A program made the translations under genes and the position numbers. 50,378 nucleotides of DNA from a virus (lineage: Duplodnaviria; Heunggongvirae; Uroviricota; Caudoviricetes). Positions 17,002 through 17,312 of the stretch are shown piece by piece. The stretch's first letter is position 1, and the number at the start of each line of letters is the position of its first letter. Location of the stretch: the IMG/VR virus record IMGVR_UViG_2562617057_000009, positions 1 through 50,378 of that record; one strand, given 5' to 3'. Below the pieces are notes generated by a model. The model saw nothing but the letters and a program-made list of their open reading frames with translations, had not been told where the DNA came from and did not search any database.

Positions 17002-17078
17002 GGCCCTTTAGCTCAGTTGGTCAGAGCGAGCGACTCATAATCGCCAGGTCGCTGGTTCAAGTCCAGCAAGGGCCACCA
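17002..17078 (+). tRNA. ileZ: tRNA-Ile2-like (anticodon CAU, ileX/ileZ type)
   Basis: Cloverleaf with anticodon loop CTCATAA and 3' CCA; close to E. coli ileX as recalled. Confidence 0.75.
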
Positions 17079-17079
17079 A

Positions 17080-17156
17080 CCACCACTAGCTCATCCGGAT
17101 AGAGCATCAACCTTCTAAGTTGACGGTGCGAGGTTCGAGTCCTCGGTGGTGGGCCA
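17080..17156 (+). tRNA. argN: tRNA-Arg (anticodon UCU)
   Basis: Perfect 7-bp acceptor stem ccaccac/gtggtgg, anticodon loop CTTCTAA, CCA end. Confidence 0.75.
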
Positions 17157-17158
17157 GC

Positions 17159-17234
17159 GCCGACTTAGCTCAGCAGGCAGAGCAACTGACTTGTAATCAG
17201 TAGGTCACCAGTTCGATTCCGGTAGTCGGCACCA
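17159..17234 (+). tRNA. tRNA-Thr (anticodon UGU), by manual fold
   Basis: Perfect acceptor stem gccgact/agtcggc, anticodon loop CTTGTAA, CCA end; one mismatch in the T-stem. Confidence 0.55.
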
Positions 17235-17237
17235 TAT

Positions 17238-17312
17238 GCGGGCATCGTATAATGGCTATTACCTCAGCCTTCCAAGCTGATGATGCGGGTTCGATTCCCG
17301 CTGCCCGCTCCA
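17238..17312 (+). tRNA. tRNA-Gly (anticodon UCC), glyT-like
   Basis: Cloverleaf with anticodon loop CTTCCAA; close to E. coli glyT as recalled. Confidence 0.7.

What the first reader, a model, noticed from the sequence alone, without database searches (positions are those of the whole stretch)
17002..17312. Four-gene phage tRNA cluster including lysidine-type Ile(CAU) and rare-codon Arg(UCU)
Four tRNAs are packed with 1-3-nt spacers between Q and the lysis genes. By manual folding they are Ile2-like (CAU), Arg (UCU), Thr (UGU) and Gly (UCC); the third has one T-stem mismatch. 933W-type phages are usually described with three tRNAs in this slot.
Basis: partly seen in the sequence, partly recalled or inferred. 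Interest (0 to 1): 0.35.

Follow-up and report, generated by a model that had tools for sequence, protein, structure and literature searches.

The report
Four-tRNA cluster in Shigella-type prophage
Four intact tRNA genes sit between the late-gene switch and the lysis genes of a decayed lambda-like prophage; they read codons that are rare in the host but common in the prophage and its ipaH gene, and the arrangement is real, ordinary and already annotated in public genomes.

Summary
ARAGORN and Rfam both find four + strand tRNA genes at 17002-17078 (CAU), 17080-17156 (UCU), 17159-17234 (UGU) and 17238-17312 (UCC). Spacers are 1, 2 and 3 nt, and CCA is encoded in all four. They lie between an antiterminator Q gene and a holin/endolysin/Rz cassette.

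The CAU tRNA is Ile2-type: 90% identical to ileX, 69% to metT. The Thr T-stem mismatch is real but is also present in the host's own thrU.

The same 521 bp occurs unchanged in 9 complete E. coli genomes, where RefSeq already annotates tRNA-Ile/Arg/Thr/Gly. So this is not new.

New detail from this work:
- The cluster is a mosaic. It joins an ileZ-like gene, an argN-scaffold tRNA carrying a UCU anticodon, and near-exact copies of host thrU and glyT.
- It is one of several recurrent cargo sets in this slot.
- A sigma-70-like promoter 10 nt upstream is conserved across different Q types.
- All four cognate codons are significantly enriched in the prophage and ipaH.

Codon supplementation is the best-supported function. 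A nuclease-evasion role is unlikely for this copy. Interest is low.

The parts
16422..16802 (+). Antiterminator Q gene (late-gene activator), immediately upstream of the cluster
   Evidence: PF06530, E=5.8e-54. PGAP calls the matching gene in EIEC strain CFSAN029787 an 'antiterminator Q family protein', and its coordinates map to 16422-16802.
16889..16915 (+). Intrinsic terminator: a 9-bp stem (AAACCCGCC/GGCGGGUUU) followed by a U run. It is read as tR', the terminator that Q-modified polymerase overrides.
   Evidence: Fold (centroid -17 kcal/mol). The element is conserved in relatives that have different Q genes. The consensus terminator scan missed it. Calling it tR' is inference from lambdoid gene order.
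16964..16992 (+). Sigma-70-like promoter: TTGCAG (16964-16969), 17-nt spacer, TATTAT (16987-16992). It ends 10 nt before the first tRNA.
   Evidence: Promoter scan, 9 of 12 matches (not significant on its own). The hexamers are conserved while the spacer varies, across 40 distinct upstream sequences linked to at least three different upstream antiterminator-gene contexts. Activity was not tested.
17002..17078 (+). tRNA-Ile2 (anticodon CAU, lysidine type; ileZ-like)
   Evidence: It is 96.1% identical to Stx-phage ileZ, 89.6% to K-12 ileX and 69.2% to metT/metU. PGAP annotates it as tRNA-Ile.
17080..17156 (+). tRNA-Arg (anticodon UCU, reads AGA/AGG), built on the phage argN scaffold
   Evidence: It is 83% identical to argN (UCG), 86% to the 'Lys(UUU)' variant, 73% to host argU and 60% to argO. 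All 21 stem pairs are intact, with U33 and G73.
17159..17234 (+). tRNA-Thr (anticodon UGU, reads ACA), a near copy of host thrU
   Evidence: It matches K-12 thrU at 74 of 76 positions; the two differences are both in the D-loop. The T-stem A:C mismatch is shared with thrU. The anticodon arm is identical to thrU.
17238..17312 (+). tRNA-Gly (anticodon UCC, reads GGA), an exact copy of host glyT
   Evidence: It matches K-12 glyT at 75 of 75 positions.
17319..17443 (+). Two long RNA hairpins directly 3' of the cluster (17319-17364 and 17373-17443); role unknown, possibly the 3' end or a processing site of the tRNA transcript
   Evidence: MFE -48.2 kcal/mol, z -3.3. Both hairpins are kept in an Enterobacter hormaechei locus with 4 double compensatory changes. 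No Rfam family matches.
17605..19517 (+). Lysis cassette downstream: holin 17605-17802, unknown ORF 17825-18454, endolysin 18520-19053, Rz 19035-19517
   Evidence: Pfam PF04971, PF00959 and PF03245. PGAP annotates the matching genes in the EIEC prophage.
28853..30496 (-). ipaH (LRR + NEL E3-ligase effector) at the prophage end; rich in the cognate rare codons
   Evidence: PF14496 NEL E=9.4e-77, plus LRR_TTSS. ATA is 42% of its Ile codons and AGA is 24% of its Arg codons.

Best explanation
These are four functional tRNA genes forming a compact polycistronic unit in the late region of a lambdoid prophage of Shigella/EIEC type.

Proposed mechanism:
1. A dedicated sigma-70 promoter, ending 10 nt upstream of the first gene, probably gives low constitutive expression in the lysogen.
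2. On induction, Q-modified RNA polymerase would read through the upstream terminator and raise tRNA output together with the late mRNAs.
3. RNase P would cut at each 5' end. The 1-3 nt spacers after the encoded CCA would then be trimmed by host exonucleases.
4. Host enzymes would supply the modifications, including TilS lysidine on the CAU tRNA.
5. The products would add to the four scarce host tRNAs that read ATA, AGA (and AGG), ACA and GGA. These codons are significantly over-used by the prophage genes and by ipaH, so translation of phage and effector genes is supported.

Shown: gene identity, structure, position, mosaic origin, codon enrichment, and conservation of the promoter hexamers.
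Inferred: promoter activity, Q-dependent read-through, processing, modification, and any benefit to translation.
For: Gene reality and isotypes: and PGAP annotation.

Position between Q and the holin.

Terminator.

Promoter: the -35 and -10 hexamers are conserved at 17-nt spacing across 40 distinct upstream sequences, while the spacer and the sequence further upstream vary. The promoter travels with the tRNA module next to different Q types: PF06530 Q in the window, a DUF1133 protein in L003 and a 162-aa Q in an Stx2 phage.

Codon usage against 42,229 codons from three 50-kb stretches of the K-12 chromosome, using the same ORF caller:
- AGA: odds ratio 3.4, p=3e-12, rank 1 of 61
- ACA: odds ratio 2.3, p=4e-10, rank 3
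- ATA: odds ratio 1.8, p=3e-4, rank 5
- GGA: odds ratio 1.55, p=7e-4, rank 13
- AGG, also read by a UCU tRNA: rank 2

Against one annotated 50-kb K-12 block, the four codons rank 1, 3, 4 and 5. ipaH uses ATA for 42% of Ile and AGA for 24% of Arg.

The literature reports the same pattern for a tRNA-Thr(UGU) downstream of Q in Shigella phage SfI: ACA bias of 17.3 in the phage against 7.1 in the host (PMC3636060).

All four anticodon loops are identical to those of the host counterparts. This fits simple supplementation rather than nuclease escape.
Against: - With the window's own 4,090 chromosomal codons as baseline, only AGA (rank 2) and ACA (rank 5) stand out. ATA and GGA do not reach the top 12, so the ranking depends on the baseline.
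- Codon enrichment is a correlation that any AT-richer foreign DNA would show.
- The promoter match is not significant in the single sequence: 2 sites found against 2.3 expected.
- The 40 upstream sequences are related to each other, so conservation is only suggestive.
- This prophage is decayed: IS insertions, a truncated terminase and a frameshifted holin. Any benefit to phage production is moot here.
- The window is almost identical to an intact EIEC prophage from 13.5 to 20.4 kb. The absence of tRNA substitutions therefore says nothing about selection.
Confidence: 0.65

Rival explanations
1. Counter-defence. The tRNAs replace host tRNAs destroyed by anticodon-arm nucleases such as P2-OLD, PARIS AriB, PrrC or colicin D, so that the induced or infecting phage can still translate.
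For: PMC12445682 shows that P2-OLD kills lambda-infected cells mainly by cleaving host tRNA-ThrU(UGU). It also shows that phage tRNA-Thr(UGU) rescues cells, including the tRNA-Thr(UGU) of lambdoid phage 21. The window's Thr and Gly both carry the substrate signature: C28-N-G30, C40-N-G42 and A37. A related cluster (L003) carries G42U/U43C in its Thr gene. That shortens the anticodon stem to 3 bp and destroys one CNG motif, and these are the two changes the paper links to resistance. The window's Arg and Ile2 anticodon stems differ from those of the host genes.
Against: The window's Thr and Gly have anticodon arms identical to host thrU and glyT, so they should be cleaved just like the host tRNAs. 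The same paper reports that host tRNA-Thr species, including ThrU, gave little or no protection. All four anticodon loops equal the host loops, so the loop-mutation signature described in PMC10264068 (title and abstract) is absent.
Confidence: 0.12
2. Domesticated host asset. The prophage is dead, but the cluster with its own promoter is kept because extra ATA/AGA/ACA/GGA decoding helps the bacterium express AT-rich virulence genes (ipaH and, presumably, others).
For: The tRNA genes are intact in a prophage broken by IS elements. A promoter independent of Q is conserved. S. flexneri SFBU1023 and 'E. coli' ECMA0423 each carry three such clusters, all intact by ARAGORN. ipaH is rich in the cognate codons.
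Against: There is no expression or fitness data. The near identity to an intact prophage means the decay is recent, so intactness may reflect lack of time rather than selection. Several copies per genome can simply reflect several related prophages.
Confidence: 0.18
3. Non-functional relic or passenger. The tRNA genes were picked up by illegitimate recombination and are carried passively with no role.
For: Thr and Gly are (near-)exact host copies, which fits recent capture. Slot 2 is highly polymorphic in relatives: 29 distinct sequences among 57 UCG copies of standard (77-nt) length, and 30% of those copies have broken stem pairs. The 'Lys(UUU)' form always has C33 and a T-stem mismatch. So some members of this module family do look as if they are decaying.
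Against: In the window all four genes have canonical cloverleaves, U33, a purine at 37 and an encoded CCA. The same four-gene haplotype recurs unchanged in 9 E. coli genomes and in several IMG/VR contigs. The cargo matches the phage's codon excess.
Confidence: 0.05

Closest known systems
ileZ-argN-argO tRNA cluster of 933W-type Stx-converting phages
   Same: It occupies the same slot, downstream of Q and upstream of the late/lysis genes. The first gene is the same (96.1% identity to ileZ). Slot 2 uses the same unusual scaffold with a C1-G72 first pair. The promoter hexamers upstream are the same.
   Different: Slot 2 carries UCU instead of UCG, G73 instead of U73, and is only 83% identical. 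argO is absent (60% identity to the window's Arg). Two extra genes, Thr(UGU) and Gly(UCC), follow. No stx genes are present.
Ile2-Lys(UUU)-Thr-Gly cluster, annotated in several E. coli prophages and in phages such as PhiR47_1
   Same: It has the same four-slot architecture, the same spacers, Thr and Gly genes identical to host thrU and glyT (its Thr differs from the window's at the two D-loop positions), the same downstream hairpins and about 95% overall identity.
   Different: Its slot 2 reads UUU, with C33, U73 and a T-stem mismatch. The window's slot 2 is a perfectly formed Arg(UCU) with U33 and G73.
Host thrU-tyrU-glyT-thrT operon of E. coli
   Same: The window's Gly is 100% identical to glyT and its Thr is 97.4% identical to thrU, including the T-stem A:C mismatch.
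   Different: In the host, tyrU and 116 nt of spacer lie between thrU and glyT, and thrT and tufB follow. In the phage module the two genes are 3 nt apart and tyrU and thrT are missing.
tRNA genes downstream of Q in other lambdoid phages (SfI: Asn+Thr; also Sf6, ST64T, PS3, P21)
   Same: The genomic slot is the same, Thr(UGU) is a recurrent cargo, and the codon-supplementation rationale is the same (PMC3636060).
   Different: The gene sets and numbers differ. SfI carries two tRNAs, with no Ile2, Arg or Gly.
Nuclease-resistant phage tRNA-Thr(UGU) that rescues cells from P2-OLD (tRNA-Thr6, tRNA-Thr21)
   Same: It has the UGU anticodon, and one of the paper's examples (phage 21) is lambdoid (PMC12445682).
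   Different: The window's copy keeps both CNG motifs and the full 5-bp anticodon stem of host thrU. It therefore lacks both features that confer resistance.

Membership tests
Bacterial tRNA (Rfam RF00005) | Covariance-model score above the gathering threshold and a canonical cloverleaf | tested here: met
   The four genes score 70.5, 56.4, 69.8 and 64.9 bits against a threshold of 29. ARAGORN draws a cloverleaf for each.
Bacterial tRNA (Rfam RF00005) | 7-nt anticodon loop with U33 and a purine at 37; 3' CCA | tested here: met
   The loops are CUCAUAA, CUUCUAA, CUUGUAA and CUUCCAA. All four have U33 and A37. CCA is encoded in all four.
tRNA-Ile2 (lysidine type: ileX/ileY/ileZ) | CAU anticodon on a body closer to ileX than to elongator tRNA-Met | tested here: met
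   89.6% identity to ileX against 69.2% to metT/metU. PGAP annotates the identical gene as tRNA-Ile.
tRNA-Ile2 (lysidine type: ileX/ileY/ileZ) | Acceptor-stem pairs C4-G69 and C5-G68.
   The acceptor stem is GGCCCUU/AAGGGCC, so C4-G69 and C5-G68 are present as in ileX. metT has U4 and A5.
tRNA-Ile2 (lysidine type: ileX/ileY/ileZ) | C34 actually converted to lysidine and the tRNA charged with Ile | not testable with these tools
   Needs mass spectrometry of the tRNA or an aminoacylation assay.
933W-type ileZ-argN-argO trio | Located between Q and the late genes, with ileZ first | tested here: met
933W-type ileZ-argN-argO trio | Second gene is argN with a UCG anticodon | tested here: not met
   The scaffold is the same, but the anticodon is UCU, the discriminator is G73 and identity is 83%.
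933W-type ileZ-argN-argO trio | Third gene is argO (UCU) and the cluster has three genes | tested here: not met
   The third gene is Thr(UGU) and a fourth, Gly(UCC), follows. Identity of the window's Arg to argO is 60%.
   The D-loop AUCCGGAUA places A at position 20, as in argU. C35, U36 and G73 are present. Charging itself was not tested.
P2-OLD-resistant phage tRNA-Thr(UGU) | UGU anticodon | tested here: met
P2-OLD-resistant phage tRNA-Thr(UGU) | [quoted passage not shown] | tested here: not met
   C28-U-G30 and C40-A-G42 are both intact and the stem has 5 of 5 pairs, identical to host thrU.
Derived from the host thrU-tyrU-glyT-thrT operon | Near-identical sequence to thrU and glyT | tested here: met
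   74 of 76 and 75 of 75 positions match.
Derived from the host thrU-tyrU-glyT-thrT operon | Host gene order, with tyrU between and thrT after | tested here: not met
   Thr and Gly are 3 nt apart, and the window has no tyrU or thrT.

The most novel reading that the evidence does not exclude
The cluster may be a self-promoted, mobile 'rare-codon cassette' that Shigella/EIEC keeps, in up to three copies per genome, inside dead prophages because it raises decoding of ATA/AGA/ACA/GGA for AT-rich virulence genes such as ipaH. Within this cassette family, slot 2 changes anticodon on one scaffold (UCG, UCU, UUU), and the Thr gene in some lineages acquires the anticodon-stem changes linked to escape from P2-OLD.
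Probability: 0.2. Interest if true: 0.4.

Novelty: already known. Interest (0 to 1): 0.15.

Why it matters
It matters little as a discovery. tRNA genes downstream of Q are a long-recognised feature of lambdoid phages, and this exact four-gene sequence is already annotated in RefSeq.

It has modest value in three ways:
- As an annotation point, the CAU gene must be called Ile2, not Met.
- It is a clean example of modular tRNA cargo: phage-lineage genes joined to freshly captured host genes.
- It is a reminder that decayed Shigella prophages may still add copies of genes for four of the host's scarcest decoders (K-12 annotates one thrU, one glyT and one argU in the regions fetched; thrU is the sole UGU tRNA per PMC12445682).

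If the dedicated promoter is active, these genes would be expressed independently of phage induction. That would be relevant to expression of rare-codon-rich effectors.

Tried and rejected
- Single-sequence MFE folding of the four tRNAs did not reproduce the cloverleaves for Ile2 and Thr. This is expected for tRNAs. I relied on the covariance model and ARAGORN instead.
- The consensus terminator scan missed the hairpin at 16889-16915, probably because the A/U pairs absorb part of the U tract. Folding shows the hairpin.
- The promoter scan alone is not significant: 2 sites found against 2.3 expected. Only cross-locus conservation supports the promoter.
- I could not locate a convincing pR' promoter between Q and the terminator by eye or by scan. 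I considered whether TTGCAG-17-TATTAT could itself be pR'. I rejected this because the same promoter and spacer occur next to different Q types (window and L003), and an S51-type locus shares its spacer with an Stx2 phage.
- Literature searches for ileZ/argN and for this four-tRNA set found nothing specific in the searchable library.
- Using the window's own chromosomal ORFs as the codon baseline gave a weaker ranking. I report this rather than discard it.
- Counting substitutions against the EIEC prophage to test for purifying selection was uninformative, because the two are almost identical from 13.5 to 20.4 kb.
- The 8-kb loci from S. flexneri and ECMA0423 were too short to show whether ipaH lies near their clusters.
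- The idea that the tRNAs are duplicated attachment-site remnants was rejected. All four are full length and lie in the middle of the prophage, between Q and the holin.

Full report
**Observation.** ARAGORN finds four tRNA genes in the whole 50 kb window, all on the + strand, at exactly the coordinates given: 17002-17078 (cat), 17080-17156 (tct), 17159-17234 (tgt) and 17238-17312 (tcc). The Rfam tRNA covariance model matches the same four at 70.5, 56.4, 69.8 and 64.9 bits, against a threshold of 29, with E-values from 1e-9 to 1e-13. The cloverleaves are canonical. Spacers are 1, 2 and 3 nt, and each gene encodes its CCA. The same mismatch is in E. coli K-12 thrU, so it is inherited and not a defect.

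**Surroundings.** Upstream lies an antiterminator Q gene (PF06530, E=6e-54). Downstream lie a P21-type holin, an unknown ORF, a lysozyme and Rz. An identical 521-bp stretch in EIEC strain CFSAN029787 is annotated by PGAP as antiterminator Q, tRNA-Ile, tRNA-Arg, tRNA-Thr, tRNA-Gly, class II holin. The window's prophage is decayed. It carries IS-type ORFs (20449-21605 and about 24927-25653), a terminase truncated after residue 479 and a one-base insertion in the holin. It ends next to an ipaH gene (NEL + LRR) and the Shigella sRNA CssrB. It is 99.9% identical over 4.3 kb to 'E. coli' ECMA0423 and 99.5% over 5.9 kb to S. flexneri SFBU1023.

**Identity and origin of each gene.**
- Slot 1 is an Ile2-type CAU tRNA. 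It is 96.1% identical to Stx-phage ileZ, 89.6% to K-12 ileX and only 69.2% to metT/metU. It has C4-G69 and C5-G68 as ileX does. ARAGORN's 'Met' label merely reads the anticodon.
- Slot 2 is Arg(UCU) but is not argO-like (60%) or argU-like (73%). It sits on the odd argN scaffold (C1-G72 first pair). It is 83% identical to argN, which carries UCG, and 86% to the 'Lys(UUU)' gene of the common E. coli variant. In the window this scaffold is in its best-formed state: 21 of 21 stem pairs, U33, A20, C35 and G73.
- Slot 3 is host thrU with two D-loop changes (74/76).
- Slot 4 is host glyT exactly (75/75).
- In the host, thrU and glyT are separated by tyrU and 116 nt. Here they are 3 nt apart.
- The cluster is therefore a mosaic of two phage-lineage genes and two compacted host-derived genes.

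**How common it is.** Of 5,426 complete E. coli genomes, 495 hold at least 80% of the 521-bp query and 9 hold it unchanged. The listed near-full-length matches mostly carry the Ile2-'Lys'-Thr-Gly form, and one carries Ile2-Arg-Thr-'Val'. I anchored a survey on a 38-nt ileZ core in IMG/VR. Together with my fetched loci it gave 125 loci:
- 58 Ile2-Arg(UCG)-Arg(UCU)
- 29 Ile2-Arg(UCU)
- 15-17 Ile2-Lys(UUU)-Thr-Gly
- 8 Ile2-Arg(UCU)-Thr-Gly (the window's type)
- a few others

The compact Thr-Gly module also occurs without slots 1 and 2 in Citrobacter braakii and Enterobacter hormaechei. S. flexneri SFBU1023 and ECMA0423 each have three four-gene clusters. The literature already records variable tRNA cargo downstream of Q in SfI, Sf6, ST64T, PS3 and P21 (PMC3636060).

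**Transcription (inferred).** A strong hairpin plus U run at 16889-16915 follows Q. It is conserved next to different Q genes, which fits tR'. Between it and the first tRNA lies TTGCAG-17 nt-TATTAT (16964-16992), ending 10 nt before the mature 5' end. One such match is not significant in isolation. Across 40 distinct upstream sequences, however, information content peaks at the two hexamers and drops in the spacer and further upstream. The element also accompanies the tRNA module beside three different upstream antiterminator-gene contexts. I therefore propose a dedicated promoter, plus Q-dependent read-through on induction. Neither was tested.

**Function.** Against 42,229 codons from three 50-kb K-12 stretches (same ORF caller, ORFs of at least 150 aa), the prophage plus ipaH (5,991 codons) over-uses all four cognate codons:

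| Codon | Odds ratio | p | Rank of 61 |
|---|---|---|---|
| AGA | 3.4 | 3e-12 | 1 |
| ACA | 2.3 | 4e-10 | 3 |
| ATA | 1.8 | 3e-4 | 5 |
| GGA | 1.55 | 7e-4 | 13 |

AGG, which a UCU tRNA also reads, ranks 2. Against one annotated 50-kb K-12 block the four codons rank 1, 3, 4 and 5. ipaH uses ATA for 42% of Ile and AGA for 24% of Arg. One caveat applies. With the window's own 4,090 chromosomal codons as baseline, only AGA and ACA stand out. Codon supplementation is thus well supported as a correlation, but it is not proven.

**Rival: counter-defence.** PMC12445682 shows that P2-OLD blocks lambda chiefly by cutting host tRNA-ThrU, and that phage tRNA-Thr(UGU) rescues cells, including that of phage 21. 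Resistance needs both an altered CNG motif and a shortened anticodon stem. Host ThrU itself gives little protection. The window's Thr and Gly keep both CNG motifs, A37 and a full 5-bp stem, identical to the host genes. All four anticodon loops equal the host loops. This copy therefore does not look like an escape allele. A related cluster (L003) does carry G42U/U43C in its Thr gene, giving a 3-bp stem and one lost CNG motif. The module family may therefore be under such pressure elsewhere.

**Other rivals.** A domesticated role for the bacterium is not excluded, given intact genes in a dead prophage, an independent promoter and three copies per Shigella genome. It is untested, and the near identity to an intact prophage removes any signal of selection. 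A passive relic is unlikely given the perfect structures and the recurrence of the haplotype.

**Verdict.** The observation and the interpretation are both right. The feature is a known kind of thing and this exact sequence is already annotated, so novelty is nil and interest is low. The added value is the mosaic origin, the anticodon-shifting slot 2, the conserved promoter and the negative result on nuclease-escape features.

Noticed in passing
window 17319-17443: Two long RNA hairpins lie directly 3' of tRNA-Gly (MFE -48 kcal/mol, z -3.3). Both are preserved in an Enterobacter hormaechei locus with four double compensatory changes. No Rfam family matches. They could be a transcript end or processing element of the tRNA module.
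   Followed up: partly
window 17783 (holin 17605-17802): There is one extra T relative to the otherwise near-identical EIEC prophage. It shifts the frame of the holin C-terminus, giving 65 aa instead of 71 aa. This is another sign that the lysis cassette is decaying.
   Followed up: partly
window 10360-11860: Three tandem repeats each contain an isrK Hfq-binding sRNA match and a C4 antisense RNA match. They overlap three consecutive ORFs (10306-10965, 10962-11621, 11618-12478). This looks like a triplicated antirepressor-type regulatory unit.
   Followed up: no
window 30624-30803 and 31560-31763: A full-length CssrB match (Shigella chromosome-encoded sRNA B, 230 bits) lies just beyond ipaH, and an IS009 RNA match follows it.
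   Followed up: no
L002 4095-4171 and 16 other copies in IMG/VR loci: The 'tRNA-Lys(UUU)' in slot 2 of the common E. coli variant cluster has C33 instead of the near-universal U33. It also has U73 and a T-stem mismatch in all 17 copies examined. It may be a decayed or re-purposed derivative of the Arg(UCU) form rather than a working lysine tRNA.
   Followed up: partly
L003 3257-3332 (E. coli RMDEC332): This Thr(UGU) variant carries G42U/U43C, giving a 3-bp anticodon stem and loss of the C40-N-G42 motif. PMC12445682 links these two features to resistance to P2-OLD. In the same cluster, slot 4 is called 'Val(UAC)' and has a damaged acceptor end.
   Followed up: partly
L132, L135, L136 (S. flexneri SFBU1023); L133, L134, L137 ('E. 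coli' ECMA0423): Each of these two genomes carries three separate four-tRNA clusters: two of the Arg(UCU) type and one of the Lys(UUU) type.
   Followed up: partly
IMG/VR loci, slot 2 (argN, UCG): argN is unusually polymorphic. There are 29 distinct sequences among 57 copies, and 30% of copies have a broken stem pair. By contrast, ileZ is identical in 107 of 123 copies.
   Followed up: partly
window 19532-20192: A ParD-like antitoxin and a RelE/ParE-family toxin pair lies just after the lysis cassette (PGAP annotation of the matching EIEC genes). An IS3-family-like transposase ORF follows at 20449-21267.
   Followed up: no
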